A DNA stretch of 64,000 nucleotides from Candidatus Omnitrophota bacterium (GTDB lineage: Bacteria; Omnitrophota; Gorgyraeia; VGKN01), in NCBI GenBank assembly GCA_020052955.1, contig JAGVOB010000004.1, positions 12,522 to 76,521 on the forward strand, given 5' to 3'. The position numbers were made by a program, and so were the translations under genes. The notes beneath the pieces were generated by a model that did not search any database, was not told the origin of the DNA, and saw only the letters and a list, made by a program, of their open reading frames with translations. Below are positions 1 to 46,300 of this stretch, one piece after another (the first letter of the stretch is position 1; each line of letters starts with the position of its first letter).

Positions 1-927
1 TATGGTCTAGAGGATATTTTTGAGATTTCATATGATAAACCAAGGCATACTATCACCGTTAGTCTACAAAATGAAAATCCAAAACCTGCTAAAGGCGGCT
101 CGATATTCCTGACGCCAAAGCATCTTCCAAAGGCATTTTTGGAGACCCCAGCAATCTTCCTTATGACATACGGATTGCTGGAGCTCCCGATAGCGGCTAA
201 CCTCTTAGGTATAGCAGGCGTTCCCTATGCGGTTAGTATTGGATACCTAGTTGCTCACGCTATAGGGGTGCTTCTTGACGCGCGCAGGGAAGGCCATAGC
301 GGATGGAAAGAAGCCCTGCAAACACTTAATCCGTTTAACAGGCCGGAGGTGTATATATTAACAATCCTGACAGGTTTTATAGGATATATGGTAGTGGCAT
401 TCGGCTGGGTAAGCCCGATAACATTAAGCGCGATTGCCGTCCTGACAGGTATCCACTGGCTGATTAACAGGTATTTCTACCCCAAAGAGGTGCGCTCATT
501 ATTCGGCAGGCTGGTTGAGATAGAGGCAAGGCTAAAGAATGATATGACTGATGAGGCGCTTAGCCAGATATCCGATATATTTAACGACATAGGCAATGAC
601 AAGGTAAAGACAGAAACGCTGAAGAAACTCCTGATAACGCGTAGCGGCGCCCTAAATGAGACCTTTGAATCAACAAGCAAGATAATGGCATTGGCTTATA
701 TGCTTTATGAAAATAAAACAGATGAAGCTGCTGCATTTGCGCAACAGCACAATTTAGCAGGCCTTGCTGCACAAGATAGTATAAACTCTATAGTAGATGC
801 TATAAGAGATGCATTGAAAGAAAAAACAGGCTTGGCTGCTGTATCATTGCAAGCTACTCCCGATACAACAACGGCTTCCACCACCATAACACTTAAGAAT
901 TTATTGACTGAACTCACCCAGAAGTAA
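1..927 (+). CDS. 3' end of an upstream paralogous giant membrane protein gene (partial, truncated by window start)
   Basis: Reading frame 1 is open from nt 1 through the TAA at 925-927 (the ATG at 139 is internal). Two TM segments are followed by a helical tail ending ...TTITLKNLLTELTQK*, which resembles the C-terminus of the 20,408-aa ORF (...TTIPRTQTLRELLIEFKQL*). The sequence TAACCGTATCATTTTT at and after the stop is identical to that after the giant ORF. Confidence 0.6.
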   Translation, partial: YGLEDIFEISYDKPRHTITVSLQNENPKPAKGGSIFLTPKHLPKAFLETPAIFLMTYGLLELPIAANLLGIAGVPYAVSIGYLVAHAIGVLLDARREGHSGWKEALQTLNPFNRPEVYILTILTGFIGYMVVAFGWVSPITLSAIAVLTGIHWLINRYFYPKEVRSLFGRLVEIEARLKNDMTDEALSQISDIFNDIGNDKVKTETLKKLLITRSGALNETFESTSKIMALAYMLYENKTDEAAAFAQQHNLAGLAAQDSINSIVDAIRDALKEKTGLAAVSLQATPDTTTASTTITLKNLLTELTQK

Positions 928-25300: not shown

Positions 25301-28300
25301 CACTGCCTGTGCGCCTTCTTCAACCGCAACACCGGTTACGCCGACAGTTACATCTACCCCTGCACCAATACAACCTCCTGCTACGCTGCATCTTCCGACG
25401 CCTGCACCCGGTTCTTTTGGTTATGTATTTCAAGGCTATAGGGACGATAAATTATTTGAGGGGTATATGCTTACAGACGATGGTGTGCTTACTTTGCCGG
25501 GCGTTAATGGCAAGATATGGCATAGTATTCCTCAAACCAATGTAAGTGAGAATCATTTCCTGAACTTTACTGTAAAGACGCCTGATGGCAGCCACGGCGT
25601 GTATATAGAAATAAGAGACGCTGGTGGTAACCTTATAACCGGCGATAAGATATGGGTAGAATTCCCTGATACTTCTATAGAAGTATCAGGCGGTTTTGTT
25701 ACATATTCTATTAATCTAGAATCGCTTCTTACAGGCGACAATATGCAAGCCACTTCTTTTGGTTTCTTAAATCCGGATGGCATAATTCAATTAAAAGGAG
25801 AGCCCGCCTTTGGCGATACACCCACAGGTAAAATGCTTGTATATCACGAAGCGCTCTACGGCTTTAACTCAACGCCTATAACCGAAGCGCCTGTGGTCAA
25901 TCTTCTTTCAATATTTGAATTCATAGCGAGCGGTGTTGGGATATGGGCGTCTATTCCCGAGGGCGTTGAGATCGACCTTACAGCGCAGAATTACTTAGAA
26001 CTGACCGCAACAACAAATGACAGAAACACCACAGTCTGGTTAGAACTTGTGAATGAAAAGGGTGAATATCTGGCGACAAATGAGGAGGAACCCCAGGCCG
26101 GTATAGAAAGGATTAAAATCATCATTCCCAATACAGAGGGAGTCCCAAAAACTTTTTATTATGATTTAAGCGAGTGGCTAACAGCGGACTTGGCAGATTA
26201 TAAGGTGAATATAATCCGCATCTCAGATACGGTTACAGGCACAGAAGGCACAGAGATTACCGAATTTAAGTTTGTCTCGGAGCCTGCAGGGGAAGAAGTG
26301 TCTATTGAAATAGTGCCTAAGAAAAAGCCGGTGCCGCTACCTTATGAGTTTATAAACCTTAGTATTATTCCAAATTCTACTACCGGTACAAATTACTACA
26401 TCCAAAAATATGAGACTCCAGTAGCGGGTAATGATGTATATGTTTCTGGTGGTGGAGCCGGACTGAGTTATAACCTAGATGAAACAACAGGTTCATTTAT
26501 GGGCGGAGTGTTTAGCGTTAGGAATCCAGAAACATTTCAAAATTATGATTATCTTATGGTGGAGATCGGCGCTGATCATAATGGAGCCGCGCCTTTTATT
26601 GAAGTTAAACCTAATGATAAAGACACCTATTTTGTACGCGGTAACGTTTTGTATATACCAATGAGCGAGATAGGTGAATTGAAAACAATTACCCTTGGTG
26701 TGAGTTATTATTCAGTAGAAGGCGGAGGATCGGGAATTACATACGGCTCGGGCACTGTTGATTTCAGGATACGCGGAACCAATACACCACCCCCTATCCA
26801 GACCAGCCAGAGTTCTGCGCCCGGCTCAGCCCCCACCTCACAGCTACAACAGCAGCCGCCATACCTTGCCGGATTTTTGGCAACACCCGGCATGCTTGTA
26901 TTCCTAACCAGGATTAGAGACTGGCTAAGAAAGAATAAGAGGAGAGTGATATTAACGCTATCTATATTATCGCCTATTCTATTACTTGCAGGTGCTTATG
27001 CAGGAGCGCGTATCTATGGCAGTGGTTTCTCAATGGAGCATGCCATTCAACTACCAGCACCAATGCCAACGGTTGAGCAAGTCAATAATCAATGGCTGAT
27101 TAATGGCAGGGTTGCCTCTGATAAAACCCTTGAGGCAGTTGATATAAAGGCAATTGATACTGCTATTACAGAAGGCAAAGCCGACAGATTATTCTGGGAA
27201 GGAATATTCTCCAATTACCCAAAAGACGTCCCGGTATCTTATCTTATAACACCAGAGCGTATTAAAACTCTATATGAGACAAAGCAATTAGACCATCTCT
27301 TTAACGGCTTAAGGACACAGCCTGACTTACTCTACCGCTACCTCTCTGAAATCCCAGAAAATCAATTAACAGACTTTGCCAGATACTTTGCTACACTAAA
27401 ACCAGGCACAAGGCAACAGGTATTTGATATATTATACCATCGCCTAAGAAATGACCTTCTAATCTTAGAGAATTTAGGCACTATAAAACCCGGTTACACA
27501 GCTCTATTAAAACAGTCAAATCGTATAGAACTTTTATATGCCACAATGGTTCAGATGCTCAATAGGATAAGGCCTATTGTTGCAGATAGACTTATAAAAG
27601 AAGGGCTTACTGAGGATCAGATTCAGGAGGGTATTAAGGAAAGCCGTATAACAAGCATGCCATTTGAAGATATTATTGTGAATAAAAACTGGATTACAAA
27701 GGAGAAACTAGATGAAATCAGAACCACTACTTTACCAGACGGACCTGTAGCTCCTATGCCAGATATGGGGTTGACAATGAGTGAATCAGAAGTAAGCTTA
27801 TATAAAGTATTTTCTGATGTGATGCAGGAATATAGAAGTAGCGGTTATACAATTATATTGCCTGCTCCAAAAAATGTTAATGTTAACGAAATTAATGGAT
27901 TGATTGAATACTATACTACAAATAGGCCAAGAAGCGGTTATTTCTTGCAAGAAAACAAGTCTGGGTTGCTCTTAGAATGGGTTATGAAACAGACAAATCC
28001 TAACAATCCATTAAGTCATATGGTGAGCGATAGAGAACTCTTAAGAGAAGCTATGCGCTTACATATTGAACCAGACGGGTCAATAGATCTATTCAAGGTT
28101 GTAGCAACTATAGGACATTACTATAAAGCTATGGCGAGAAACCCAAGTCTTATACTTGGTGGTGCTGAGGCTCGTGGACTAGAAGATGGCGCTACATTCA
28201 TTGGCGTACGCCATCTACCCATACTTTTGATAGCAACACTTGATCCAAAAGTCAATTATACAGTTGACGAAAATGGACAGCCTGTTCTATTTTGGCGGCC

Positions 28301-31300
28301 AGTAGACATCGATGGCAATGATCGGATTCCGTTAGGACAGCGTGTTGGCATATCATGGCATTCCATTGAAGATGATCTTTATCATTCTTGGAACTTTTTA
28401 TTAACTGCTTTATATGTTGACGCAAAATCCTTGCCCGAAATAAAAATTGATTTTGAAAACTTTATTCAAAGGTTTCCTGAAAGCTACCGCCATTTAAAAA
28501 ATACTTCATTCGTAGAAGTTTTCACTACTACGATAAAGCTATTATCATATGAAAGGAAAGAAGGCTTTTCTAATGAGACAGGTAGTATGATGATGGGAGA
28601 TCTTCCAATATTGTATAAGTATGTACGAATTTTAAGATTAGATGAGATTGGCATGTTAAATTCTTTTAGTTTTGGCACAGGTGAATTGGGAAAAAGTGAA
28701 GAAAAAACAAAGCTACTGTTTGCTGAGGTTGGGCGGGATATATATCAACAATCTGGAATAATGTTTGTAGATAGAAAAGAATCGTTAATTCCTGAGTCTG
28801 ATGTATTGAAAGATATTAAAACACTAGAAGGTGGCATATCTCTTGAAGAGCATAATGATATATTTGTTATTCAAGAATGGAAGATGTCAGGTGAACCTAC
28901 TATTGAAGAATGGGCTTTCAGCGATCCAAAACATTTTTGGGAAATTGTTGAAAAAATTAGAGTAAACAGCGAACAGGCTACAGAGAAACATGTTAATCTT
29001 GATTTTCCTTTCACTTTAGAAGATGTGCAATTGCGCCTTGAAAATAAAATGCTAAATGTCTCAGATTTTATTACCTATGGGTCGCCATATTTAAAAGAAA
29101 AAATCGCATCTACTACAAAATCAGTGGAGCTACTTGATTTATTAACAGTTGATGCAGATGTTAAATTTGTTGTTATAAACAACCCAAATACTTCACTTGA
29201 GACGTTAATGCGATTATCCTCCGATCCTGATAGAGAAGTGAGAAGATCTATAGCGATCAATACAGCAACTACTCCTGCGATGTTAATAGAGTTGACATCT
29301 GATTCAGAAGCCAATGTTAGGTTTGTCGCTGCTTTTAATGAAAACGCACCGCTTGTTGCCGTTGCTCTCGCAGTTTTTCTGAAATCAGATGAATATATGA
29401 GCCTTAACTATAGCGCCACATATGATAATAGGCCAACAATAGATGAAATGTTTCAAAATCGTTACTTTGGTCTTGGAACTCATATGGTTAAGATATATAA
29501 CCAATGGAATGGAATTTTACCAGGCGAGAGGCTTCCATCTGATCTAATCGAGAAATTAATTCAAGCCGAACCACTCTTTAAACGCGCAGTTGAAGAATTG
29601 CCGGATAAAACCTGGGATGAGGTTCCTATAACAGGAGATATCAATAAGGATGTAACCGCATTAATCAATGCTGTAGAAACAGCACTAAATACCAAAGCAC
29701 AAGCACCCGAACTACCCACCCTAACCTCACAGCTACAACAGCAGCCCCCATACCTTGTAGGCTTTTTGGCAACACCCGGCATGCTTGTATTCCTAACCAG
29801 GATTAGAGACTGGCTAAGAAGGAATAAGAGGAGAGTGATATTAACGCTATCTATATTATCGCCTATTCTATTACTTGCAGGTGCTTATGCAGGAGCGCGT
29901 ATCTATGGAAGTGGCTTCTCTCTTGAACATGCCATTCAACTACCAGCACCAATGCCAACGGTTGAGCAGATAGATGGTAAATGGATTATGAATGGAAGGG
30001 CTGCCTCTGATAAAACCCTTGAGGCAGTTGATATAAAGGCAATTGATACTGCAATTACAGAAGGCAAAGCCGACAGATTATTCTGGGAAGGAATATTCTC
30101 CAATTACCCAAAAGACGTCCCGGTATCTTATCTTATAACACCAGAGCGCATTAAGGCTCTATACGAGACAAAGCAATTAGACCATCTCTTTAACGGCCTA
30201 AGGACACAGCCTGATTTACTATACAGATATTTCTCTGAAATTTCAGAAAGCCAAATGACAGACTTTGCCAGATACTTCGCCACCCTTAAACCCGGTACAA
30301 GACAGCAAGTATTTGACATATTATACCATCGCTTAAGAAACGACCTACTTATCTTAGAGAATTTAGGCACTATAAAACCCGGATATTCTACCTTACTAAC
30401 ACAGTCCAACCGTATGGAAATCCTCTATGCTACAATGACCCAAATGCTAAATAGAATGACTCCATTGCCTGTAGGTGAACTCCCAGACGGCCCTGTTGCT
30501 CCTATGCCTGTTATGGGTCTTACAAGAGAGCGTTCTATAGATAACCTCTACAGAACATTTGAAGAGGTTATCACAGACTATAAAAATCAAGGCTATACCA
30601 TAACACTGCCTACACCTGATAGCGTTAATGTTTCTGAAGTGGTTGGGTTAATTGGATACTACAACAGCCTACCTGATTTTTCTTTGAGAGATAATCAATC
30701 TGCGCAGCTCCTTGAGTGGGTTTTAAAACAGACTGACCCAGAGAATCCATCTGCGCATATGGTAAGTGATAGAGAGCTCTTGATAGAAGCAATGCGATTA
30801 TCCGCTGGGCCAGATAGAACAATAGATTTATTTAAGGTTATAGCGACCATCGGGCATTATTATAAAGCAATGGCTAGAGCCCCATATTTAATCCTCGGTG
30901 GCCCTGAAGCTCGTGCTAATGAAGATGGTCCAACCTTTATAGGCAGACGTCACGACCATATGCTTTTGGTCTACTCTTTAGACCCAAAAGTTGAATATAG
31001 TGTGGATGAAAATGGCCAGCCGGTCTTACGCTGGAGACCAGTGGATGCGGATGGTAATGATTGGATTCCGGAAGGTGAACGTGTTGGAATTAACTGGCAT
31101 GCCATTGATGATAATCTTTATCATTCTTGGAATTTTATTCTCACAAATCTATATATCGAGGCCAAGTCTCTTAAAGAAATCGGTAACGACTGGGAGAGTT
31201 TTTATCAAAGATACCCATCCTCAAATGAATATAAATCTATGAAAAGCACTTCCTTCTTAGATGTTTTTGTTGCGGGTATAAGAATGTTACAAAACCCAGA

Positions 31301-34300
31301 ATCCGCCGGTAAGGTAGGTACTGCAAATGAACAAGATCTCCCATTGTTTAATAAGTATTTACACCTTGCCGGTATAGATGAGTTTTTCTTACGGTACTTT
31401 ACTTTTGGGTTATTTGGATATATAGAACGAGGCGGTAGTGAACCGCTAACTAAAGCAATATTTGCAGAAGTTGGAAGAAGAATCTATCAGAAGACAGCAG
31501 ATGGTGAATCCGACGTAACTTTGGTACAACATCCTGAAATATTAGTTTCTGGCACCTGGAACATTAGAACTATCGGAGGCGGTAGATCGCTTGCAGAGTA
31601 TAACGATAGCATTATAAGAGAATGGAGGGTGTTGGGTAAACCTTCAATTATCAAATGGGCTTCAGATGATCCTGAAAGATTTTGGGAAGTTGTTGCAGCA
31701 ATTGATCAACTTACTCTATTGGCGAAGTTAACAAATGCCAGTATTAACCCTCCTTTTACTGTAGAAAGTGTAATATCGGCTATTGAGGAAGGGACTTTAG
31801 TAAATGAGTATCCCTCATTTAACCATTGGAAGCAAGATATTTTATCTTATCCGCCAGAGGTGCTCGATATATTAGCCTTAGATACTGACCCCGAGGTGCG
31901 AAGAATCGTAGCAGAAGATATAGAAGCTTCACCCAAGGCATTAGGATTTTTAGCCTTGGATTCAGATCGTGAAGTGAGGATATATGTAGCAGCTAATAAG
32001 GGCGGTAATGTTCCGGCTGACGCATTAATGTTGTTGATTAGGGATAAGGATCCTTTGATAAGCGGGCATGCGATATATAATCAAAATACTCCTCTTGCCG
32101 GTCTTGTCCTTGGAATGTCCCTTGTAAGTGATAATAGTCAGATTAAAATTAAAGATATAGAATCCCAATTATCACAAAGATTTAATGGTTTAGGTACTCA
32201 TATATTTATTGTCTATAGCCGGTGGAATGATATTTCGCAGGAACAGGAAATCCCACCAGAAGTAATCAACCAACTTCTTGCGGCCGAACCTCTCTTTAGG
32301 CGCGCAGTTGAAGAATTGCCAGATAAGACCTGGGATGAGGTTCCTATAACGGGGGATATTAATAAGGATGTAACCGCATTAATCAATGCTATTGAAACAG
32401 CATTAAATACCAAAGCACAAATACCTGAGCTACCAGGTTTAGCGCCAACACAGCCCGCTGTACCTGCGCAGTTACCCACCCCCACCTCACAGCTACAACA
32501 GCAGCCCCCATACCTTGCCGGCTTTTTGGCAACACCCGGCATGCTTGTATTCCTTGGCAAAATTAAAGACTGGCTTAGGAGGAATAAAAGGAGAGCGATA
32601 TTAACAGCAACAACCATAGGATTATTACTCTGTTTTGGAGCAGGTGCCACTTATTTTATAGTTAACCGTACGCAACAGCCTGTAGTTACGACAACCTATA
32701 CAATAACAGATCTGGATAGTTTGCTGGTTAAATTAAACAGCACAAACCGCATAGTAAGACAGCAAGCCTCTGAGGAGATAGCGCGGTTAGCATATGATAA
32801 TCCTCAAGAGGCAATAAATATTATTAACAGGCTTGAGAGATGGTCTATAGAGGTTCTAAATACCCCTGATAAAAAATTGAAATGCTATCCTGAACTTTTG
32901 GATGCCATAGTTAAAATCGGAACCCATATATATAGTGATAAGGAACTGGATAGACAAATCACAGAGGCAGCATTCGCAAAGCTCTTAGAGTTCTTTGATA
33001 CTGAGAATGAACAACTTGCAGGGTTTGTCCGTGACGCGATACTCAATTTTGCAAACAGGGTTAATACGCCAGAGGTGTTGAGCAAAACAGTAAAGATTGA
33101 TGTTTTAAGAGGAAATCTTGAGCGTTCAGACAGCGGTCTTAGGGCTATATACAATTTATTGGGGACATCAAAGAATGACAGGGTAAGAGAGATAATTTTA
33201 AAGATGTTAGAAGAACTACCTACAAGAGCACCCATTTTTGACCCGGCACATACAGGAGGTTTGTGGTTTAGGTATCTTTTTGAGGCATTTATGCCCATAA
33301 TTTCAGATGGCAGAAATAAACAGTTAAGCGACCTTGCTGCGAGGGTATTGGTGCAGGTGACAGTATCCCAGATTAAATCTACCGAAACCCATGGTTTTTC
33401 AGAGGGCGATATTTATCTTGTTACAAACGGCTATCTTATAGGAACAGGTCTTCCTGGAGGGATTAGCGATTACAGAAACTTCTTTACACCCATTACAGGT
33501 GAAATTGACCAGGTAAGGGCTAAGGGCGACAAGTTTACAGAACTGAGACTTCTCTGGGTGCTTGAGCAGTTAGGGATAAAAGTTATTATAAGCGGGATAG
33601 AACGAACAGATAATCAGGGAAGGATTATTGCGGAAAACCAGGTTCAGGGATTAGTGGAGTATCTAAATAAAAACTATCCTGCTGATTCAGGTAATTTAAC
33701 CATTACTAAAGTTGTGGCGCATAGAACACTTATTGCAATGACAGGAGGAAGACTTCAGAGATATGTTGAGACAGCGCAGAACCTGCCGGGCGTGTGGGAA
33801 AGAAGAACCGAGTACAACAATCTAACCTCTTCCATTGGAAACTCAATATCAGTGCTTGAACAGGCGTATAATTCCACCGACCCGGTTCTTCATGAATTGG
33901 CAGTGGTATCTATGTTAGATTTGCTTAAGAATGACTTTACCACTCCAAGGGAAGTTTATGAACCGCTGATAAGACTTTTAGTAGAAAAAGCTAATAAGGG
34001 CGATACAGACGCAAGCAAGATATTAATTGCCGTTGTAAGCGATGCAGATATAGGATTTGAAATTGTTGAACCTCTCTTTAGAATCCAGGGCGTAAACATA
34101 GGTGTTAGATCCGGCTTCCAACCTACTGACACATATGTAAGGAGATTTACGAATGAAAGGGTTGATGAAAAGTTGAGAGCCCAGTATGCCCAGATGGCCC
34201 AAGGCGATATTAATTATATAGCGCTGGGCAATTTATTAGAAGTCAAAAATGTGCTTTCAGAACAGGGAGATATTGCCAATGCCTCTGAGAGCTTAACGTT

Positions 34301-37300
34301 GGCATTAGGTATTAGGAATATATTGCTGGTTAATGAAGATAATCCGGATGCTAAAAGATTGCTCCCTCTTATGGATGAGACAATTATTTCCCTGATTAAT
34401 ACAAAGATAGTAACTTCAGATGACAGGGTGGAATTTGCGATGAGCGATGCGCAGGTAAATGAGTTGTTAAATTCGTTGGCTAAAGCGGATAAATTTTACG
34501 ATTTAAGGTTAATTGAAGGAATGCTAAATACCAGAGGTATTTCCTCAATAAATAGCGATACATTAAGAACAATAGATAGTTATGCATTTAAAGCAATATT
34601 AACTGGAAACTATGAAGAGGCAGAGTTTGGAAAAAGAGTATATACAATAATATTTACCAGCAATCCTACAATAAGTGACCATACAAACGAACTCATCAAT
34701 GCCTTAAAGACAGCTGACCTGCTAAGGGCAAGGGTTATATTGGATGCCCTTTATTCAATCAATTTGGTAAAACCATTGACAACGGACCAGACCGGAGAAT
34801 TGTTAAAACCAGAGAGCCTCTGGGCATTATTTGATTCAAGCGATGCCCAATTAAGCCAGCTGGCCGAGAATCTTATCCTTTCCCTGCTTATTTATAATGC
34901 AGATGATAGCCAATATCTATCAGCGCTTAACCATATAACAAGCATATTTAACACTAACTTAAGGGCCAGCGCCTCAACTATTACAAAGGCATACAGGCTG
35001 ACAGATATGGTTACCTATCTTGAGGGTTTACGTCCTATACGGGATGAGCAAACCAGGCAAGCCCTGTATGCGGCGATGAACCCGTATTTACCGCAGGAGG
35101 GAAGGCTTCCTGTTGTAGCGCTTGAGGCACAGGAACTTGAACAGAAGATTGAAACCGCCAGAGCAGATATCAATGCTATCCTAAATAAAACAGGCCTTAG
35201 CGATGAGCAAAAATGGCAGCTGATAGAGCCTATTATGTTCGGCATAGAAGACGATGAAATAAAGGGCATAATAGAAGAAGGAAGGATTTATACCCTGCCA
35301 AGAGAGCGCGAGTTAATCAGGATGACATTGACAGAAATTGCAGTTTCGCCGTCAACATCTCCATATATTACAAGAAAAATGGTTGATAAGTTGATGGCGC
35401 TTGTTGAAGAGGAGCTTAAGAGACCTGTGTTTGAGGATATAGAGCAGGAACCCCTTGCTCCCGGAGAGGCGAGAGATCTTGGTTATGCCTCAATGCTTGT
35501 TAAGACAGCGGGTTCAATAATAGGTTTAAGCCGGCTTGATTATACAGCTGAAATCTCCAGGATGAAGGCGTGGCTGGTTCTTAGCGTTAACGAAGGAAAC
35601 AGCATCACAGAAGAGCATCTTATAGATGCAAGGAAGAGCTCTTTTTCAAGCGATCCGAACAGAGTGCTCAGACTCGCGAACAAAAGGAATTATGTGTGGC
35701 TTACAACAGGCCTGATAGAGGCGCTGGGAGAATCAGGAACCAACATATACGCGGACAGGGATGATATAGTAAATGCCGTATCCCCTTATTTAGGCAAATG
35801 GGATAAATACGTTGATTCCTCTGTCTTTAAGGCGCTTATGAGAATTGGTATGCACCAGGGGACATCAAGCGCTACCTCGCAGCATATCATCAGAAATATC
35901 CTCACGCCTTATATAGAAGATGTGTCAAAACCCCTTGAGCGCAGGGTTATGGCATCCGAGGCAGTTATAAATATTTCCATAGAGTCAAATGTGGATGTGA
36001 CAGATGGACTGCGCAATCTGATGTTTGATATATCCAAGAGGTATATAACGAAACCACTTGCCCAGAGGGACGAGGATATTTCATACAGGTCCATATATGT
36101 GCTGGGCTCGCTCGCTCTTTTAAGAAATACAACGGAAAAGATGAGGACAGATTCAATCAATTTACTGGTTGATTATCTCGGCAATAAGGAGGAATTTGCG
36201 CTTGCGCGCTCTGAGAGCACCCATATGTTAGGCGAGATAGCGTATAACGGATACATGCCGAGAGGGCTTATCCAGCCCATCGCAGATGGACTCTATAATT
36301 ACAGTGCGGATACAGAGGAGGATATTTTTGTAAGGGCTATGGCAACCAGGGCGTGGTTAAGATTTGCTGAAAACGAAAATATAGTTGCTACGGAAGAAGA
36401 CATAGCGCTGATGAACGACAGGGTTGTAGAATTGTATGAAGAACTCGAGCAATTGCTTAAGGTTGCCAGGGGCGGCTATGCGGCGCTTTCAGATGAAGCC
36501 AGAAGAATAGTAAGCGATGTGTATAACTGGTCGGCAAGCCAATATGAAGCGGCTCAGGAATTAAATTCGATTAATGAGAAACTTCAGGAAATGCGACTTC
36601 GCGAGCAAGTGATAGATGGAAAATTAAAGGGATTGACTGTTGCGCTAAACAAAGTCAGGGATATAGGAAAGCCTTTGCCAAAGGTTGAATATGAGGAGGG
36701 GACACTCTATCTTGTGTATCAGCGGAATCTTAATTTTATAATATCCTTAGGCATGGGAGGTTATGATGCTGAAAACTTCGCAAACTATATGACCGATTAC
36801 GGGCTTAGCGAATCCTTTATGAGACTCTACCTTGCTAATCTGAAAGAGTTGTATGGCTTGGGCTATAAAGTAGGAGACGCAGAATACTGGGCTGAGGTTA
36901 TAACTATAGGCAATCTTTCTCCAGACTATGTGCCGAAATTTGAGAAACTTCGCGACGAGTTAATGGAGAGTTTTGACTTAGATGTAGGCGACGCAAGTAA
37001 TTTAGCGCACTTTATGCTGATAAGTGGAGAGAAGGTACATTATGTCAGACTTCTTCTTGATAGCGTCAAGCGCATTATGGACAGCTATCCGGATATGGAT
37101 AAGGGCGATGCCTATTATTGGGCGCACTATCAGATAGTTACTGGCACAAGCGGAGTAGATTTTGTTAAGCTGATGGAGCATAGAGAATTTATAAGGAGTA
37201 TCGGAATATTTACAAATGAAGGCGATATAACCTATTGGGCGCGCTTTATGATGGAAATGGAATATGTAGTGGCGGAGCCTGGCGAGCCTATGAAGCAGTT

Positions 37301-40300
37301 TATGCGAACATATTTTGAGAATATGCGAATCCTTATGGAAATCGGCTTCTCCAATAAGACAGTTCAGGAAAAAGGAAGGCTGGGTTACTGGACATTGTAT
37401 ATGACGCAGACAAACTCTGACAGGGCTCATATGGAAGAGTTGTTTAAGAACAGGGTGATTGTCGAGCAGATGCTCGGGCTAAGAGAATCCGATTATGTAA
37501 CCGCCTCGCGCGATTTGAGGGAGCAGATTTTAAAAATGCAGGATTGGTCTGGTGCGCAGTATGATTTAACGGTTAAAATGAAAGAGTTTGGCTTAAAACT
37601 CAAGGAATTTCAGGGCCAATGGGAACTTCAAGAAGAGGCTCTGCAGGGCCTTAAGCAAGAATTTGTCGCTATAAGGAAACAGCTTAAACAAGCAAGGGAT
37701 GCCCGCTTACAAATCAGGCTTGACCAAAGAAAAGGCCAAGCGCCAATAACGAGAAGCGAGATCAGCAGTATTTTGGCAAAGGCAGGAATGGGTTCTGGAA
37801 CCGGAGATACAACTTACTGGTATGACACAGTATATTCTATGGGCTGGGCAAGGAGGGATTTCGAGGATCTTGTAAATTATATGGGCAAGATTAAAAAATT
37901 ATTGAAAGACTTAGATCCAGAGAGACGGATAGACCCGATCCTCGCAGGCTATTACGCCATGTTAATGGTAAATGAGGGCTATAGTCTTGATGAAATCGGC
38001 ATTATTATAAACTATACATTGGAGATATATAGCGACCCTGGGATGAAAGATTTTATCAGGCTCAACCTCCATCCGGCAGATGCGGATATCGACAAGGCCT
38101 TAAACAATATGATTCACAGCTGGGCAAGATACAGGTACGATAATCAGCTTTCAAGGGATCAGCTTAAATTATTCCTTACAAATTTACCGGAGGTATTTGA
38201 AGTTCTTTATAATAACCCGAGCGAGACAGCGTTCACGAGGGTTTTATTAAAAGAGCCGGCTGTCGAAACTAGAAAAAGAGAGATATCCCTCGCATATTTT
38301 GACGTATTCGGGATTTTGCCGAGATGGGGAGACATAAAAATAGGCGAGGTTGCAGATCAGCAGGCATGGGAATATCTAAACAGCGGTTTATCCGTAGAAG
38401 AGATAAAATCGGAACTTCAGGCTAAAAGGGATAGAGGCGAAACCATCGCAGGAACAGTGCCAGAGGTTGTTAAAAAATATGGCATAAACGACCCGTATAT
38501 CCAACTCTTTAGAGAGTTGCTTTACAGATTTCCCTACAATGAGGCAGAACTCCTTGAGCTGAAAAAATCAAGCTTAAGCGATACCAGAGAGACTATTATG
38601 GCTTCCGAGGAATTCTTTAATATTCACTTGAGACAGATAGAGCCCGATGCGATGTACTGGACACAATTTATGATAGATAATAACATGACGCCTCGGCAAC
38701 TTGAGGAATATTTTAAGTTAAAGGCTACCTTAGGACCCGTTATACCGGAAGCCTTCATGGGACAGGCCGAACCTGAATTAAGAACCGATGATGAAATAAA
38801 GGCTGTAATCTCAGTTATGTTCAGGACCATACTCAAAAGAACATCGGCCAACGAATTAGAGCTGAACTTCTGGCTAAATGTGTATAGAACAGCCGAGGCC
38901 CAGGAGGAAGGGACCGGCTTTACAGAAATAGAGAATGAATTCTATGCTTCGCGAGAATACAGGGAAAAGGTATTGGGCGACCAATGGGATGGAACGAGAT
39001 TTATCTCTGACCGCATGGGAGAATTGAGAAGGCTGTTTATTGAGATATACGGTGAAGAGCCCTCGCGGAACATATTGATATATTACGCTGAAAGCACGGG
39101 CAGACCGCTGCGTTTTACAAGACCAGGCGATGGAAATATTGAAGCAGAATTGAGAGGATTTGAGACGATAGAGGAATTGGAGGAGAGTGCTTCAAACAGG
39201 AAAGATTATATAGAAAGATTCCAAGCCCAGGGGCAACTGCTAAACATACTTATGGAACAGAGCAATCTGTCATACTGGACAAATTTTATGAGAGTGGCAG
39301 GCAAGGACATCGCCTATATGGAGAGATATTTCAAAAACAGGGAATTTATAATAAGTCTAGGTTTATTTACCGATATAGGCGACATCGGTTTCTGGACACA
39401 GTTTATGACTGATATGGAACCTGTATTGATTAAGCAGAGGATAATCTCGGGACCCGGCGAGCCGATGCAGGAATTTATGAGAAAATATTTCGCCAATATG
39501 AACGTCCTTATGAGTATCGGTTTCTCCGATAAGACAGACCAGGAAAAGGGAGAGCTTGGATACTGGACGCTGTATATGACAGTGGCAAATAAAGACGCAT
39601 CATATATGAGAAAACTGTTTAACAACATAAAGACAGCGGAGGAACTGCTCGCAAGCCGGACGGGCCAGCCTCAGCTCACCGGAGAAGAAAAGATAGGCGA
39701 GGTGGGCTATTACGCCTCATTGATTACCGAATTTGATTTATCTCGGGAGGATGCGGAGGTTCTCATAAATACCGGGACAATGCCTCAGCAGCTTCGCGCA
39801 TGGGAGAGCGAGCGCAGGCTTGGGATTATCGAGGAGATATTCGCGAGGACGCTTTACATACCGGGCCTTATTATTACGGTGCAGGATAATTCTACCAATG
39901 AAGATGTAACCGGCACGTTGAAATTTTATATTTCCAATCTTTCCTCTCCGAGCAGATTGTTAGGCAAAAAGGATGCCCTTGTCGCCATAGAATCCATAAG
40001 GGTTATTGCAAGGGATTACGGAATCCCGGCAGAACTGCAGGATGAATTGCTTGGAACCTTATTTAGTATGTTAGACACCGCAACTCACCAGGAGAGAATA
40101 GCGATATACGGAACCATATCAGAGATTATATCGAGCCCGTCTGTTCCAAAGGCAACTTTTACTGCCGCATTTAAACGGATGTTTAATTCTTATACGCTTT
40201 CTCCCGATTTATACACGGAGCCCGAACTTGTGTGGGCGCTTAGGAATACACTTGAGAAAAGGGGAAATGACATCGATTATAGTGAATTTAAGATTTTAGC

Positions 40301-43300
40301 CGATACGGCGTTAAACGACTTAAGGACATCTAGAGATAACGCAAGGCGTGCCTCAGCGGCATCCACGCTTGGCCTGATGGTAGAACTCGGCATACTGCCG
40401 ATGGATTTATATGGGCCCACCTATAACGAGTTGCGCAAAATCATCGAAGACAAAAATCAGAACAGCCGCGTAAGAACAGCAGCCGTCTGGGGCATGTGGC
40501 GCATGGGCGTTCATAATCAAATCCCTGGTGCTGATATTGATATAGTTATAAATGACCTTATTGAAGTGGTTAAGACTGGTTATGATAATGAATATCAGTT
40601 GGCAGTTATAAGCCTTGGGAATCTCGCCGAATTAGGCATTATCCCGTATTACTTAATGGATGATGTAAATACAGCAATGCTAAACAGGCTCTCCACGCTT
40701 AATACTTATAGAGATATAGACGAGACAGTTAAGGCTATAATCAGGGTTAATGGAATCGGTAATGCCTCAGCCACCATAACCGCCAAAAATACATTAAACA
40801 AATTTACTGAAATACTTTCCAATCCTAATACTGATCCATATCTTAGAAAGAACATCGCAAATGCCATTAGCACAATAATAGAAAGAAGGGCAACCCTCGA
40901 GGCAGACCAGATTTTATTCAGGGATGTATCAAGGGTAATTTTAAGTTTAATGCAAACTGCCAAGAGTGATCCGGATGCAGATGTAAGAAGAGCAGCGATT
41001 TTATCCCTAAGCAGAATCTATCGGGCAATGGAAGATACGCTGTCGCTTGGTCCAAACGGTGTTTCTTATATTGAGGAAGGAGTTGCATTTTTACAAGACT
41101 TAAAAGACCCGCAGACTCAACCAGAAGTTATCATTGCCTTAGGTGACATTGCAAAGGTATATCCAGAGCAGACGTTGATGACAGGATTGGTGAATATAAG
41201 GGATTTTGAAATAAAACCCGGCGATACTGGAAGGATATATCAGGCTAAACTTTATACTGTTTGGAGATTAGCCTCAACCCATGTTGCAACAGAACAGGAA
41301 AGAGCCTACGCGATAAGTGTATTAAGAGGTGCTTTAAAGAATAAAGATTTTAGCACCCTAATAGCCATTGACGGGCTTGGCTGGCTGGGCTATACAGGCG
41401 CTATCCCCGCAGAGGATTTAGATGCTATTATAAGAGAAGTTATTGATGCCTCTAACTCAATGCCGCGGCAGATATATCCTGAGGTTCAGGGAGAGCTTGA
41501 GAGGAGATACTTTGAATATTCAATTCCAGCATCCCTAAGGGGTGTGGTAATGCTTGAGGATGCGGTTAGCGCAAATGCCCTTTGGCGTATGGTGGTTAAT
41601 CCTGAAGACAATGTGAATAGAGAAAGCGCGCTAACAACCATTGTTACCTATGGAATACAAAACGAGACCGTTAAACCCTCTTTACACAGGGCACTTACCT
41701 GGGCTGCCTCAGCTATTCTTACAGATGTTGACACAAAACAGACTCAAGCAGGAAATCTCTTACACCTTGTATTGTCGGATTTAAATTCTGGCACAAGTTC
41801 CATAGGCATAAGACGCCAGGAAGCATTGCTTCTTGTTAGCATAGTAAAAGGGAGAGAATTGTCAGGTGATTTACAGGCTTTGGCAATCAATGCGTTGGTG
41901 GATTATTTAGGAGACCCTGTAATAGGCAACGAGGTTGTTGAATCCATAATTGATTTAGCCACAAGGCAGACTACATCTCAACCTGTTTTAGATGGGCTTA
42001 ATACGAGGCTTGATATTCTGTCCCTCACAGCTGATAAAGCCACTCTGGAGCGCATAGAAAGGATTAAAAATGCTATAACTGCTATCACCCAGGATAAGAG
42101 CGCAAGGCCGTTATATTCAAAATTGTTCTTTGGACCCTCTGGGACATTTGCAGAAACCGATGTATGGACACCCTATGGAGTATTAAGGGGCACCTTAGGT
42201 TATAACCTTGCAAAATGGGATGATATTAATATTAATGCAACAAGCGGTTTATTGGTGATAGGTTTGGATACTACCATCTCCCAGAGTTCGGAGTTAGAGG
42301 CATATGCCAATTTAAAGCACCTTGCGGTTATGATTAACCCTCAGGATACTCGCGGAGTATACCTGGATGCAATGCTCTCCGGAAATGATGCCCAGTTAAG
42401 AAAACTTATAACTGTGCTAAAAGGGAGCTCTAATGAGGTAACACTTGTTTTGTCTCCTGACCTTTCAAGGCCCGAGCAGGCAATGGCGTTTATTTCATAT
42501 ATCAACACGATAATTGAAAAAGCAGGCGGCCCTGGTAAAATACGTATTGCCTTGGCTGTCGGCACCGATGTCTCAGAAGGGACACTACAGGCTATGTTTG
42601 ACCAAAAAGACATTTCTCTGGTAAGCGAAGTGTATATCATCGGCACAAGATATGGCCAGGAAAGCCCGAGCGGTTATATAACTCCCTATGAGCTCTTTGG
42701 AGCAACCTACAGGCAGGTCGAAACATTGAAAATTCCTGTATCCATTGTCCTCCCGGCAGGAAGAGAGTTAGAATATGATGCCTCCTGGATTGAGCAGTTA
42801 AAATCAGAGATAGTACCCGGCGGAAGACTATCGAGATATACAAAAGCAGTCTATCATTATGGCTCACCGGATGAACTTTTCTTGCACGAGGAATCTGCTC
42901 AAAAGGCTCTTCAGGATACGATAGCCGCTGTCGGAGAAAGCAAGCTATCTGATCTTGAGAAACTTTATAAAGATACACTAGGCCTCACCGGCCGCGGAAT
43001 TATGGAAGGGAATTTTGAAAAGGTGGCACAGGGGCTATGGGGGAATATGCCATTTTTAGTTAAACTGTTATTTTTTATCCCAGTTTACGCCTTACTCGCT
43101 TTGATATTTAATAGGTTTATTCTGGCAAGGAGAAAAATTTCCATATTATATCTAGATATAACGAAAGAAATCCGAAATAAAATTTCAGCCTCAGCCACCT
43201 ATTCTACTTATAATTTCAAAATGGTTTTGGCTATTTCAATTGCTATTATGGCAACTTCTCTAATATTGGGGGTATCAATGCCATGGGTTTTTGCTCGAGG

Positions 43301-46300
43301 AAATGAGCTTATCACCCTCCGTACTCCAAAGCCAACTATCTCTGATATAGGGAGGATTACCACTTCTGTAACACCGGCTCCTGCAAGCGACACATCTATT
43401 GTGGTGGATATGGCAAGCGCTGACTGGAACGGCCTTACAAGGCTTATCTCAGATAAGGGGCTTGTGTTTGATAAGGGAACTATTGATTTAAATAAGATAA
43501 TCATTGGGAATTTAAACGGCAATATCTCTGCATTCGGCAGTTATCTCGCAGCAATTGTTTCAGCAAGGGATATGGGGATTATCACTGATGAAGAAGCAAA
43601 AATAAGGATAATGCAGACACTAAATGCGCTCCAGACGCTACCTCGTGATAATAACGGTTTCTTATACTCGTGGTATGATGCCCAGACAGGAAGGCCTCAG
43701 CCCATCACGGGTTATGCAATGGTTGATGGAAAACTCCAGCAGGTTACAGGCTATCACGTCTCCTCTCTTGATAATGGCCTTCTGGATTTGGCTTTAGAGG
43801 GAATAAGAGAAGCCTATAGGGATGACGAAGAAATCACTCCAATTATAGATAGCCTGCTTAGCCATAACTACTCTGCATTCTATGATACAGAGAAGCAGAT
43901 GCTTGGAGTGGGCTATTTTGATGTCCTTGGAAACCTCTATTATGAAACCAGTCACTATAGCACCTGGGGTTCTGAGGCAAGGGCAGTTGTGGTATATGCT
44001 GAGGCAAAGGGCGACATACCCTCCGGCACATTTGCAAATCTTTATTCTAATGTAAAAGGCTATACCACTGAGGCAGGAGAGGAGATTTTAACCACCAGTT
44101 TCTTCCAGGGCTCTGGCCATCAGGTCTTTGTGCCGGAGATATTCTTGGGAGAGAGCAGGATGTCGCCTCAGGCAAGGGCAATTCTGTTAAATTATTCAGC
44201 CATAATGCTGGATAAGGGTGTATTTATCAGCGCAGCAGAAAGCCCGATATGGTATATCGCAGATGCAGGAATCAAAGATGTCAGCGAAAATGATGTTAGG
44301 GAAGACCTGCTTGTTCCCTATGCCATATGGCTTGCCGCTTCTGTTAACCCCCAGGAGATGACAAATAGACTCAACCAGCTAAGACAAGATCATCCCGAGA
44401 TGTTCTCTACCCAATTCGGCTTTGCTGACAGTATGGTTACACAGGATGGTGGTTTAGGAGAAGCAGGCACCGTAACCCGAAAGGTTCTTGCCATTGACCA
44501 CGCCTGGTCTATTATGAGCGCTTATTCTGCCATTGACGAAGACGGCGGATTTAGCAAATATGTCAGGCAGTCAGATATAGGAACAAGAATAGCCACTGTA
44601 TATCAGGGCATAGATAATCAGACTCGCGATGCCGTTCGTCCGAGACAGGTTCCTCATGTTCCTGTAGGTATTATAGCAGGAATTACAATTAGTATCGTTG
44701 GCGTTATTGTAGGAATTGTTCTATTAATCTTAGGTATAAGGCGCTCTAAAGAAAAAGCCCGGCCGCAACCCGAAACAGGCGTTACGCCTACTCCGGAAAC
44801 ACTACCTTCTCAGGAAACGCTGTCATCTCAACCTGAAGCAGCCCCGCAAGTGTCTCAAATGGCTATAATTGGCGGACGCGCACCACCTCTAAGAGATTTA
44901 AGTCTTTCGCCTAAAGAAAGGATAACCCGAGCGCTTGTCCAGCTTACCGATGTTAGCGTAGAAGATATAGATTTTGAAAGCATTGAAGTGGAATACGAAA
45001 CACCAACCGGATTTGTATATATAGTAAAAACAAAAATAACTAAGAAAAAATTCTTTGTTGAGATAGTCAGGCGTTATGACAGGGATAAGGCTCCGTTTAA
45101 AGTTACTGTCAATGACAAAGAAATTCCATTTGCAGAAGGCGAGTATATCAAGGTCGCAGATGGTAAGAGAAAGGTATTAGGCTTATATTATAACTTAAGC
45201 GCTATAAAAGGATTTAGCCCGAGTAGCGAAGACGCCACTAGAATTCGAGAAAGAGAAGAAAGGTATTATAATAATGTTTTAGGGTTTGTCCAGGAAATCG
45301 CCTCTAATCCCCAAAGCGTTCCCAGATATATTATAAATCTTGAGGGTATAAATACAGAAAAAAGCGAGTTAAGAAATAAGATAGGCCTTCTTAATCAGAA
45401 TATAGCAACCCTCCCGGAAGGATATAGAGCAGAGATAACCAATACTACTCCTAACGAAGAATTACCAATTCAACTTACTCTTTTACCCACCTCTCAACAA
45501 ACAGCAAGACAGATTTCAGAGGATGAATTAGATGCTATAAGAGTTAAAACCAAAGAGGCAGAATTAGCTGAGGCTGGAAAATTAGTCTCCCAGACAGTTA
45601 CACAAACAAAGCCTGTTCCATCCGAAATAAGAGGGTTCTTTAACAAAATCGGCGCTATCCTAAAAGGTGAGTATTTCTATAATGGCGCGGATTTAACAAA
45701 GGCAACTGCTCCATTTTATTACTTAAAGGTGGTAAAGAAGGTTAATGAAAAGGGTGAAGCAGTAGATGAAACAGAGTTTCAGAAATGGGCTTTAGTAAGG
45801 GATATAGCCCTTGTCTCAATACTCGGAATAATAATTGCATCAGTTTCTATTTTAGGAATATACACAATTCCGACTATACTTGCTGTAGGTTTAGTCACTG
45901 GTTTTGGACTAATTGTTAAAGGAATTCAGGCAAGGTATGAAAAGGGGTTTAAGATAGGCCTTATTGTCAGTGCATTTAGTTTTATATCTTTATTTGTCGC
46001 ACCCCTTTTAGCCCTTTCTATAACAGGCATCATTATAGGTTTTGCAAGTATTTCTGGGTATGGTTTTGGTAAATGGATTTTAAAACAAAAGGCAGAGACT
46101 CCCATAATAGGTATTATAGCTTTGCCAATTTCACTTCTTGGCATAGTTGCTGGTTTGGGAATAATCTCTGTCTTTGCCATTAATGTTGCTGTTGCTTTTG
46201 TAGCTTTTGCCTATGGCATATATAAATGGAGAAAAGAAGAGGATATCTCTGCAGTTGTAAAGCCCTTTGCAATTTCTGTTTTTATGCTCTCCCTTTTACC

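What the first reader, a model, noticed from the sequence alone, without database searches (positions are those of the whole stretch)
36765..39640. Novel array of about 38-aa 'GD-x-x-YW-x-x-FM' repeats
At least ten divergent copies with invariant Tyr-Trp and Phe/Tyr-Met positions lie inside the alpha-solenoid region. I cannot assign them to a known repeat family. The aromatic pattern suggests a stacking or ligand-binding repeat.
Basis: seen in the sequence. Interest (0 to 1): 0.55.

Follow-up and report, generated by a model that had tools for sequence, protein, structure and literature searches.

The report
Orphan helical repeat in giant protein
A real but very rare family of about 38-residue two-helix repeats, found only in a 20,408-residue membrane protein of an uncultured bacterium and in one related genome, most likely builds a rigid helical scaffold outside the cytoplasm and does not bind a ligand.

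Summary
The repeats are real. The window is one 20,408-aa ORF (1359..62585, +), and the finding lies in frame in it. An HMM finds 12 units at aa 11797-12812 (nt 36747-39794) and none in the other 19 kaa. Nine units score 18-37 bits when left out of the model. The spacing of units that lie next to each other is 37-57 aa. Tyr-Trp and Phe/Tyr-Met are strongly conserved but not invariant.

The units are not one clean array. They lie in two large modules, each a coiled coil followed by units. The second module also holds at least two units of the phycobilisome-linker/DUF4214 superfamily (profile vs PDB, ApcE E=3e-10).

The GD-YW units match no known family:
- Pfam gave no hit near its cut-offs, and no TPR, Sel1, HEAT or DUF4214 hit at all.
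- PDB sequences gave nothing.
- 1.84 billion representative proteins gave only summed weak hits.

One orthologue exists, in a MAG labelled Planctomycetia. It has three modules, and dN/dS against the window is 0.18.

The conserved aromatic and Met residues follow a helix-core pattern. I read the repeats as a lineage-specific two-helix scaffold or docking module in a probably extracytoplasmic arm of an Archaeovorin-like giant protein. This is a new repeat family of a familiar class and is moderately interesting.

The parts
1359..62585 (+). Giant ORF of 20,408 aa that contains the repeats. It has SecY and SecA_DEAD domains near the N-terminus, about 78 hydrophobic TM-like segments, HEAT repeats, DUF3131, and uridine kinase, cytidylate kinase and HD domains near the C-terminus.
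32652..43052 (+). Soluble stretch of 3,467 aa (aa 10432-13898) with no TM-like segment. It holds the repeat region and a HEAT_2 hit. The TM helices at both ends have their K/R-rich side facing away from the stretch, so it is inferred to be non-cytoplasmic.
36426..36698 (+). Stretch ahead of module 1 (aa 11690-11780) that I read by eye as a coiled coil. It carries a 'W-S-x-x-Q-Y' motif that recurs in the second such stretch.
   Evidence: sequence; no prediction was run
36747..37475 (+). Tandem six GD-YW units u1-u6 (aa 11797-12039). Unit u5 has a loop insertion. Units u4-u6 form the first conserved three-unit block.
37491..37733 (+). Second coiled-coil-like stretch (aa 12045-12125), opening module 2.
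   Evidence: sequence; weak Rootletin match
37785..38039 (+). Two weak candidate units (aa 12143-12183 'GDTTYW' and aa 12188-12227 'AGYYAMLM'). They are seen by eye but not supported by the leave-one-out HMM (about 1 bit each).
38097..38207 (+). Divergent unit u9 (aa 12247-12283, 'IHSWARYRY'). It scores 6.6 bits when left out and 32 bits in the iterated HMM.
38484..38633 (+). Phycobilisome-linker/DUF4214-like unit a (aa 12376-12425).
38628..38744 (+). GD-YW unit u10 (aa 12424-12462, 'PDAMYWTQFMI'). It scores 23 bits when left out.
38784..38978 (+). Phycobilisome-linker/DUF4214-like unit b (aa 12476-12540). A profile built from three non-orthologous units of the related genome finds it as the only hit in the giant protein.
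39246..39794 (+). Tandem four GD-YW units u12-u15 (aa 12630-12812). Units u12-u14 form the second conserved three-unit block, and u13 has a loop insertion. The model covering these units has pLDDT 79.8.

Best explanation
The GD-x-x-YW-x-x-FM units are a lineage-specific family of two-helix (helix-turn-helix hairpin) repeats of about 38 residues.

How each unit is built (inferred from the conservation pattern):
- Gly-Asp caps helix A.
- Tyr/Phe-Trp-Ala/Thr-x-Tyr/Phe-Met forms the buried face of helix A.
- Ser/Asp caps helix B.
- Met...Tyr/Leu-Phe-x-Asn...Leu/Val forms the buried face of helix B.

Successive units pack side by side into an elongated all-helical rod. The units arose by old duplication, and they sit with coiled-coil-like stretches and phycobilisome-linker/DUF4214-like units in a higher-order module. 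That module is present twice in this gene and three times in its one known orthologue.

Proposed function (inferred, not shown): a rigid spacer and protein-docking scaffold in a long, probably extracytoplasmic arm of an Archaeovorin-like giant membrane protein. On this reading the aromatic and Met residues are structural.
For: - The repeat is real and confined to aa 11797-12812.
- Both AlphaFold models are entirely helical with two helices per unit. The single-sequence model has pLDDT 59.7. The model built on a window-only paralogue alignment has pLDDT 79.8 and pTM 0.70, and all five models fall at 75-80.
- Conservation over 29 units (12 from the window, 17 from the orthologue) has the spacing of buried helix faces and N-caps.
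- The region is under purifying selection against the orthologue: dN/dS 0.18 at dS 0.91.
- The module number differs between the two genomes, as expected for a modular scaffold.
- The flanking transmembrane helices have their K/R-rich sides facing away from the 3.5-kaa stretch (7/15 against 1/15, and 1/15 against 8/36).
- West-Roberts et al. (bioRxiv 10.1101/2023.11.21.568195) predict extracellular HEAT-repeat regions in this class of protein, and a HEAT_2 hit lies in the same stretch.
- The interleaved units belong to the phycobilisome-linker superfamily, whose characterised members are protein-protein linkers (the role is from my general knowledge of PF00427).
Against: - No function was tested and no partner is known.
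- The better model rests on a shallow alignment of five paralogous segments, so the packing between units is uncertain.
- I could not measure burial of the aromatic residues.
- The topology rests only on the positive-inside rule.
- Met is 4.5% here against 1.8% elsewhere in the protein. That could point to a flexible hydrophobic binding surface and not only to a core.
Confidence: 0.6

Rival explanations
1. The GD-YW units are shortened, strongly diverged phycobilisome-linker/DUF4214 units. They would have kept the 'D/E-x-x-(G/L)-x-x-W' helix and the 'F-x-x-S/N-x-E-F/Y' helix and lost the first 'LGR' helix. The whole region would then be one diversified DUF4214-type array.
For: - Bona fide phycobilisome-linker-like units lie between the GD-YW units.
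- By eye, motifs line up in one register ('FKNREFIISLG...GDIGFW' against '...S-x-E-Y...LGR-x-P...EL..W').
- The unit profile picks a tandem DUF4214 protein (P0005) out of 1.84 billion proteins at E=1.5e-4, and hhalign aligns the two in that register.
- The only local hhalign match between the two profiles of this locus falls on the 'E-L..W' segment.
Against: - The profile-profile comparison is not significant (P=0.096 and 0.24, probability below 1%).
- The P0005 hit is a sum of 2-6-bit matches to near-identical copies, and P0005 was already selected as one of the best of 1.84 billion.
- The 29-unit profile finds no phycobilisome linker in the PDB at E up to 10, whereas the interleaved units reach E=3e-10.
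- The Asp-to-Trp spacing differs: 4 residues in GD-YW units against about 7 in DUF4214 as I recall its consensus.
Confidence: 0.2
2. The units are a divergent member of the TPR-like superfamily (TPR, Sel1 or HAT) and form an ordinary right-handed superhelix that binds peptides or proteins on its concave face.
For: - Each unit is a helix-turn-helix of 37-39 aa with a conserved small residue (Ala/Thr at position 12) and an aromatic pattern.
- The best hit of the exhaustive profile search is a TPR protein, P0001 (E=1.1e-6). Its repeat 'LGNFAxFMT...AEILFNRA' aligns without gaps to 'LGYWTLYMT...MRKLFNN'.
Against: - No Pfam TPR, Sel1 or HAT model matches the region, single units, or the unit and block consensus at E up to 10.
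- Individual P0001 repeats score only -3 to 9 bits, so the E-value is a sum over ten near-identical repeats.
- hhalign probability is 23% on a preselected target.
- There is no Pro at the TPR position 32 equivalent, and the period is 37-39 rather than 34.
Confidence: 0.12
3. The conserved aromatic and Met residues form an exposed ladder or groove that binds a ligand, such as a hydrophobic peptide, a lipid or glycan of a prey envelope, or a soft metal.
For: Met, Tyr and Trp are enriched: Met 4.5% against 1.8%, Tyr 5.5% against 3.6%, Trp 1.7% against 1.2%. The location is probably extracytoplasmic. Giants of this class are proposed to act on prey surfaces.
Against: The conserved positions fit buried helix faces. 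There is no similarity to any known binding repeat. There are no conserved His or Cys residues of the kind expected for metal sites, and the 3,467-aa stretch holds a single Cys.
Confidence: 0.08

Closest known systems
TPR-like helical hairpin repeats (TPR, Sel1/SLR, HAT; Pfam clan CL0020)
   Same: Tandem units of two antiparallel helices with degenerate sequences. The conservation is a pattern of hydrophobic, aromatic and small residues rather than catalytic residues. The unit length of 37-39 aa falls inside the Sel1 range. The best remote sequence hit is a TPR protein.
   Different: No Pfam model of the clan matches. The period is not 34. The signature (G-D N-cap, Y-W-A/T, F/Y-M-T-D, M..L/Y-F-x-N) is distinct. 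The predicted structure has no TPR-like neighbour in the PDB.
Phycobilisome linker domain (PF00427) and DUF4214 (PF13946)
   Same: Units of this superfamily are interleaved with the GD-YW units in the same module. Both unit types are short and helical, and each has a conserved Trp after an acidic turn and an aromatic residue followed by a polar residue in the last helix.
   Different: The GD-YW units have two helices in about 38 aa, against three helices in about 60-70 aa. Profile-profile comparison is not significant. There is no hit to phycobilisome linkers by sequence or by structure.
HEAT-repeat scaffolding of Omnitrophota 'Archaeovorin'-type giant proteins (West-Roberts et al. 2023, bioRxiv 10.1101/2023.11.21.568195)
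   Same: The context matches: a giant ORF with many transmembrane segments, a SecA_DEAD domain and HEAT repeats in long soluble stretches that the authors predict to be extracellular. The likely role as a helical scaffold is the same.
   Different: Pfam HEAT models hit elsewhere in this protein (around aa 13148-13221 and aa 17048-17120) but not in the repeat region. The nearest genome is labelled Planctomycetia, not Omnitrophota. This protein also carries a SecY domain, which that paper does not report inside giant genes.

Membership tests
TPR (PF00515, PF07719, PF13181 and related models) | A significant match to a TPR profile, with a 34-residue unit and the W4-L7-G8-Y11-A20-F24-A27-P32 pattern | tested here: not met
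   No TPR model at E up to 10 for the region, its thirds, the unit consensus or the three-unit consensus. The period is 37-39. There is no conserved Pro.
TPR / Sel1 / HEAT solenoids (structure) | The predicted structure superposes on solved solenoids of these families | tested here: not met
Sel1-like repeat (PF08238) | A significant match to the Sel1 profile (36-44 aa units) | tested here: not met
   No hit at E up to 10.
HEAT (PF02985, PF13646) | A significant match to HEAT profiles | tested here: not met
   HEAT_2 and HEAT hit other parts of the same ORF but nothing in aa 11797-12812.
DUF4214 / phycobilisome linker (PF13946 / PF00427): the GD-YW units | Significant profile similarity to the family or to the locus's own phycobilisome-linker-like units | tested here: not met
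   Pfam gave none. hhalign against the locus's own linker-like units gave P=0.096 and 0.24. There is no phycobilisome linker among PDB sequence hits at E up to 10. A full HHpred run could not be done.
DUF4214 / phycobilisome linker (PF13946 / PF00427): the interleaved units at aa 12376-12425 and 12476-12540 | Significant profile similarity to phycobilisome linker domains | tested here: met
   The six-unit profile A6 against the PDB gave 34 hits, nearly all phycobilisome linkers (ApcE 3.3e-10, 1.1e-9; Glr1262 9e-9). In the orthologue, Pfam PBS_linker_poly scored E=3e-6 and 27.7 bits, just under the 28.7 cut-off. Isolated units gave PBS_linker E=2e-3 and DUF4214 E=1e-2. The window's own units gave no Pfam hit on their own. 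They are tied in through a profile built only from the orthologue's units.
Archaeovorin-type giant proteins (context, West-Roberts 2023) | A giant ORF with a SecA_DEAD domain, many transmembrane segments and HEAT repeats | tested here: met
   20,408 aa; SecA_DEAD E=3.6e-9; HEAT_2 E=5.8e-19; 78 hydrophobic segments.
Archaeovorin-type giant proteins (context, West-Roberts 2023) | Encoded by an Omnitrophota genome | not testable with these tools
   The window has no marker genes. The only related contig is titled 'uncultured Planctomycetia bacterium'.

The most novel reading that the evidence does not exclude
The GD-YW units are a new helical repeat fold with no neighbour among solved structures. 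They would have been born inside this giant-gene lineage, possibly from phycobilisome-linker/DUF4214 units. Their Met- and aromatic-rich surface would form an adaptable hydrophobic groove that holds partner proteins or prey-envelope components on the outer arm of a giant protein carrying its own SecY and SecA domains.
Probability: 0.12. Interest if true: 0.6.

Novelty: new variant of a known kind. Interest (0 to 1): 0.35.

Why it matters
Giant bacterial proteins are largely unannotated, and defining their building blocks is the first step to understanding them. This unit is a clean, testable module:
- It has a clear signature.
- It is under purifying selection.
- It has no relatives in more than 1.8 billion representative proteins and no structural neighbour in the PDB.
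- It sits next to phycobilisome-linker-like units in a bacterium labelled Planctomycetia rather than a cyanobacterium.

If its structure were solved, it would add a new family to the catalogue of helical repeats. It might also show how new repeat types arise from older ones inside fast-evolving giant genes. By itself it does not change any general view, because new orphan helical repeats are found regularly.

Tried and rejected
- Word-indexed homologue searches found nothing with the 1,050-aa region, the 12-unit alignment or the phycobilisome-linker-like unit alignment.
- The exhaustive hmmsearch of the unit profile against 1.84 billion representatives gave 6 hits at E up to 1e-3. P0001 is a TPR protein and P0005 a tandem DUF4214 protein. 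P0002, P0003 and P0006 are near-perfect tandem arrays. P0004 has no Pfam family. Per-repeat scores are 2-9 bits, and 12-16 bits for P0004, which shows no BLAST similarity to the giant protein. I rejected all six as family members.
- Two scans of metagenome contigs with different conserved patterns found no relative. The one scan of genome contigs found a single orthologous locus.
The afdb50 fold library was unavailable.
- The first, single-sequence model (pLDDT 59.7) gave only weak Foldseek matches to designed helical toroids (E=0.026). I did not use these.
- Tandem Repeats Finder found no repeat at the DNA level.
- I considered the minus-strand ORFs inside the region (37002..37430 and 39314..39628) and dismissed them. 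They lie inside a 61-kb open frame that is under purifying selection in the + frame.
Full report
**1. What is at the coordinates**

The whole window is dominated by one open reading frame, 1359..62585 on the + strand, of 20,408 aa. The finding's start (36765) is in frame with it, at aa 11803.

Pfam finds these domains in the ORF:
- SecY at aa 879-1187, E=4.8e-36.
- SecA_DEAD at aa 1471-1650, E=3.6e-9.
- HEAT_2, HEAT and HEAT_PBS around aa 13148-13221 and aa 17048-17120.
- DUF3131 near aa 14059.
- Uridine kinase/PRK, cytidylate kinase and HD near the C-terminus.

A hydropathy scan finds 78 TM-like segments. This is the architecture described for 'Archaeovorin'-type giant proteins of Omnitrophota, which have a SecA_DEAD domain, many transmembrane helices and HEAT scaffolding (bioRxiv 10.1101/2023.11.21.568195; bioRxiv 10.64898/2026.06.07.730766).

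**2. Is the repeat real?**

Yes. By eye the translation shows GDAEYWAEVI, GDAYYWAHYQ, GDITYWARFM, RLGYWTLYMT, PDAMYWTQFM, SNLSYWTNFM, GDIGFWTQFM, ELGYWTLYMT and more divergent forms.

- An HMM built from 15 hand-picked units finds only those units in 20,408 aa.
- To remove circularity I left each unit out, together with its paralogous twin. Nine units then score 18-37 bits and three score 5-7 bits. Three candidates score about 0 or below (aa 12143 and 12188 about 1 bit, aa 12494 -3). The best score anywhere in the other 19.2 kaa is below 0.
- The core motif [YF]W[AT]x[YFW][MQL] occurs 7 times in the 1,019-aa region and once elsewhere. Shuffles of the region give 0.0015.
- Two three-unit blocks, aa 11913-12042 and 12632-12767, are 47% identical (E=1e-38).
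- Spacing of units that lie next to each other is 37-39 aa for plain units and 45-57 aa where a loop is inserted.
- There is no DNA-level tandem repeat, so the copies are old.

In the window, Trp is present in 9 of 12 units and [FY]M in 7 of 12. Over 29 units from the two genomes, Trp is present in 25, Tyr in 20 (Phe in 5), Ala/Thr after Trp in 28, and Met at position 15 in 19. The array runs from nt 36747 to 39794.

**3. Anatomy**

The units are not one uniform array. In order the region contains:
1. A coiled-coil-like stretch, aa 11690-11780.
2. Six tandem units, aa 11797-12039.
3. A second coiled-coil-like stretch, aa 12045-12125, with the same 'W-S-x-x-Q-Y' start.
4. Two doubtful units and one divergent unit, aa 12143-12283.
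5. A stretch of different units, described below, which also holds one good GD-YW unit at aa 12424-12462.
6. Four tandem units, aa 12630-12812.

The consensus of 29 units is FQDEGDAGYWAQYMTDNNLSRAYMEKLFKNRETVME.

Conservation has the spacing of two amphipathic helices. In helix A the conserved positions are 8 (I/A/L/V), 11 (W), 12 (A/T) and 15 (M), together with 10 (Y) and 14 (Y/F). In helix B they are 25 (M/L), 28 (Y/L/F), 29 (F/L), 32, 35 (L/V/I) and 36. G6-D7 and S/D21 sit where N-caps are expected, and Asn at position 31 is conserved.

**4. The interleaved units belong to a known superfamily**

Between the GD-YW units lie segments such as 'DEIKAVISVMFRTILKRTSANELELNFWLNVY...ENEFYASREYREKV'. 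From memory these resembled DUF4214, so I tested the idea.

- In the orthologue, the equivalent segment hits Pfam PBS_linker_poly at E=3e-6 and 27.7 bits, just under the 28.7 cut-off.
- As isolated 61-mers, units of the orthologue hit PBS_linker_poly (E=2e-3) and DUF4214 (E=1e-2).
- A profile of six such units, two from the window and four from the orthologue, finds 34 PDB sequences. Nearly all are phycobilisome linker proteins: ApcE E=3.3e-10 and 1.1e-9, Glr1262 9e-9, ApcH 4e-7, plus CpcC, CpcG and CpcL.
- A profile made only from three non-orthologous units of the orthologue finds window aa 12477-12538 as the sole hit in the giant protein.

These units are therefore members of the phycobilisome-linker/DUF4214 superfamily.

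**5. The GD-YW units themselves match nothing**

- Pfam: no TPR, Sel1, HAT, HEAT or DUF4214 hit at E up to 10 for the region, its thirds, the unit consensus or the three-unit consensus. The only rows are unrelated families far below their cut-offs.
- PDB sequences: nothing at E up to 10 with the region, the 12-unit profile or the 29-unit profile.
- The 5.8-billion-protein word-indexed search found nothing.
- An exhaustive hmmsearch of 1.84 billion representatives gave six hits at E up to 1e-3, the best at 1e-6. These are a TPR protein, a tandem DUF4214 protein, three near-perfect tandem arrays and one unannotated protein. Individual repeat matches are only 2-9 bits, or 12-16 bits for the unannotated protein, which shows no other similarity to the giant. 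The E-values are therefore sums over near-identical copies and are not evidence of membership.
- hhalign of the unit profile gives P=0.096 and 0.24 against the locus's own phycobilisome-linker-like units, about 1e-3 against the preselected DUF4214 repeats and about 9e-4 against the preselected TPR repeats (probabilities 0.3-23%). None of these supports an assignment.

**6. Structure**

A single-sequence AlphaFold2 model of aa 11786-12048 is all-helical with two helices per unit but of low confidence (pLDDT 59.7). Its best Foldseek match is a designed helical toroid at E=0.026.

A second model covers aa 12620-12829 and used an alignment of five paralogous segments from the window. It reaches pLDDT 79.8 and pTM 0.70, with all five models at 75-80, and is again all helical.

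- Foldseek against the PDB gives a best E of 2.7.

The predicted shape has no solved neighbour. The caveat is that packing between units, predicted from a shallow alignment, may be wrong.

**7. Relatives and selection**

One related locus exists among 185,579 species-representative genomes. It is contig CAZDNS010000003.1 of a MAG titled 'uncultured Planctomycetia bacterium'. Its 20.4-kb stored stretch is one open frame, collinear with the window at 59-72% protein identity.

It carries 17 GD-YW units in three modules, against two modules in the window. dN/dS against the window is 0.18 in the repeat region (dS 0.91) and 0.13-0.20 in the flanks. The region is therefore translated and constrained. 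Two scans of JGI metagenome contigs found no further relative.

**8. Location**

No TM-like segment lies between aa 10432 and 13898. The helix before this stretch has 7 K/R in the 15 residues on its far side and 1 on the near side. The helix after it has 1 on the near side and 8 K/R in the 36-residue loop beyond it. By the positive-inside rule the stretch is non-cytoplasmic. This is an inference. It agrees with the predicted extracellular HEAT regions of Archaeovorins.

**9. Interpretation**

Best-supported reading (confidence about 0.6): a lineage-specific two-helix repeat whose aromatic and Met signature is the hydrophobic core. It forms a rigid helical scaffold or docking module in the outer arm of the giant protein. 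It is built together with coiled-coil-like stretches and phycobilisome-linker-like units into a module whose copy number varies.

Rivals:
- Degenerate DUF4214/phycobilisome-linker units (0.2). This is attractive because of the neighbourhood and the shared motif register, but it is not significant in any test.
- A divergent TPR-like repeat (0.12). This failed both the sequence and the structure tests.
- An exposed aromatic/Met ligand-binding ladder (0.08). There is no positive evidence for it.

**10. Verdict**

The claim that the repeat belongs to no known family holds with every tool available here. The ligand-binding suggestion is not supported. This is a new repeat family within the familiar class of helical hairpin repeats, known from two related genomes only. 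Interest is 0.35.

Noticed in passing
window 1359-62585 (+), especially nt ~3993-4919 (SecY) and ~5769-6308 (SecA_DEAD): The whole window is one 20,408-aa ORF. A full-length SecY domain (PF00344, E=4.8e-36, aa 879-1187) lies about 280 aa upstream of a SecA DEAD-like domain in the same polypeptide. West-Roberts 2023 reports SecA-like domains in giant proteins but says SecYEG is encoded elsewhere. The 2026 Omnitrophota preprint has no occurrence of the term SecY. A SecY-SecA fusion inside a giant protein may be the more interesting feature of this window.
   Followed up: partly
window nt ~26900-32600 (aa ~8520-9480 and ~9485-10410): There is a large internal duplication of about 960 aa. It includes an identical hydrophobic segment, 'VILTLSILSPILLLAGAYA', at aa 8530 and aa 9493, preceded each time by the same K/R-rich 'RIRDWLRxNKRR' motif.
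   Followed up: no
window 38484-38633 and 38784-38978; L001 aa 2330-2489, 3078-3242, 3803-3861: Units of the phycobilisome-linker/DUF4214 superfamily occur inside a giant protein whose only known relative is labelled Planctomycetia, not a cyanobacterium. The profile against the PDB gives ApcE E=3e-10.
   Followed up: yes
L001 (CAZDNS010000003.1, 13576-34001) against window 32559-43136: The orthologous giant gene is collinear with the window. It has about 650 aa and about 425 aa of extra sequence, which give it three coiled-coil-plus-repeat modules instead of two. The module shared by both is 72-82% identical, while the flanks are about 60% identical.
   Followed up: partly
window nt ~46920 (aa 15188): A solitary 'MYFWTLYQSS...FKNIEECVRNNRDKLF' segment matches the core motif. 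It lies outside the array, just after a cluster of TM-like segments. The HMM did not report it at 8 bits or above.
   Followed up: no
window 36747-39794: The repeat region is rich in Met (4.5% against 1.8% in the rest of the protein) and acidic (163 D/E against 120 K/R). The whole 3,467-aa soluble stretch contains a single Cys.
   Followed up: partly
window 37002-37430 (-) and 39314-39628 (-): Minus-strand ORFs of 142 and 104 aa lie inside the repeat region. They are embedded in a 61-kb open frame that is under purifying selection in the + frame, so they are most likely spurious.
   Followed up: partly
window 139-927 (+): A 262-aa ORF with a hydrophobic N-terminal half lies immediately upstream of the giant gene. 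I did not analyse it.
   Followed up: no
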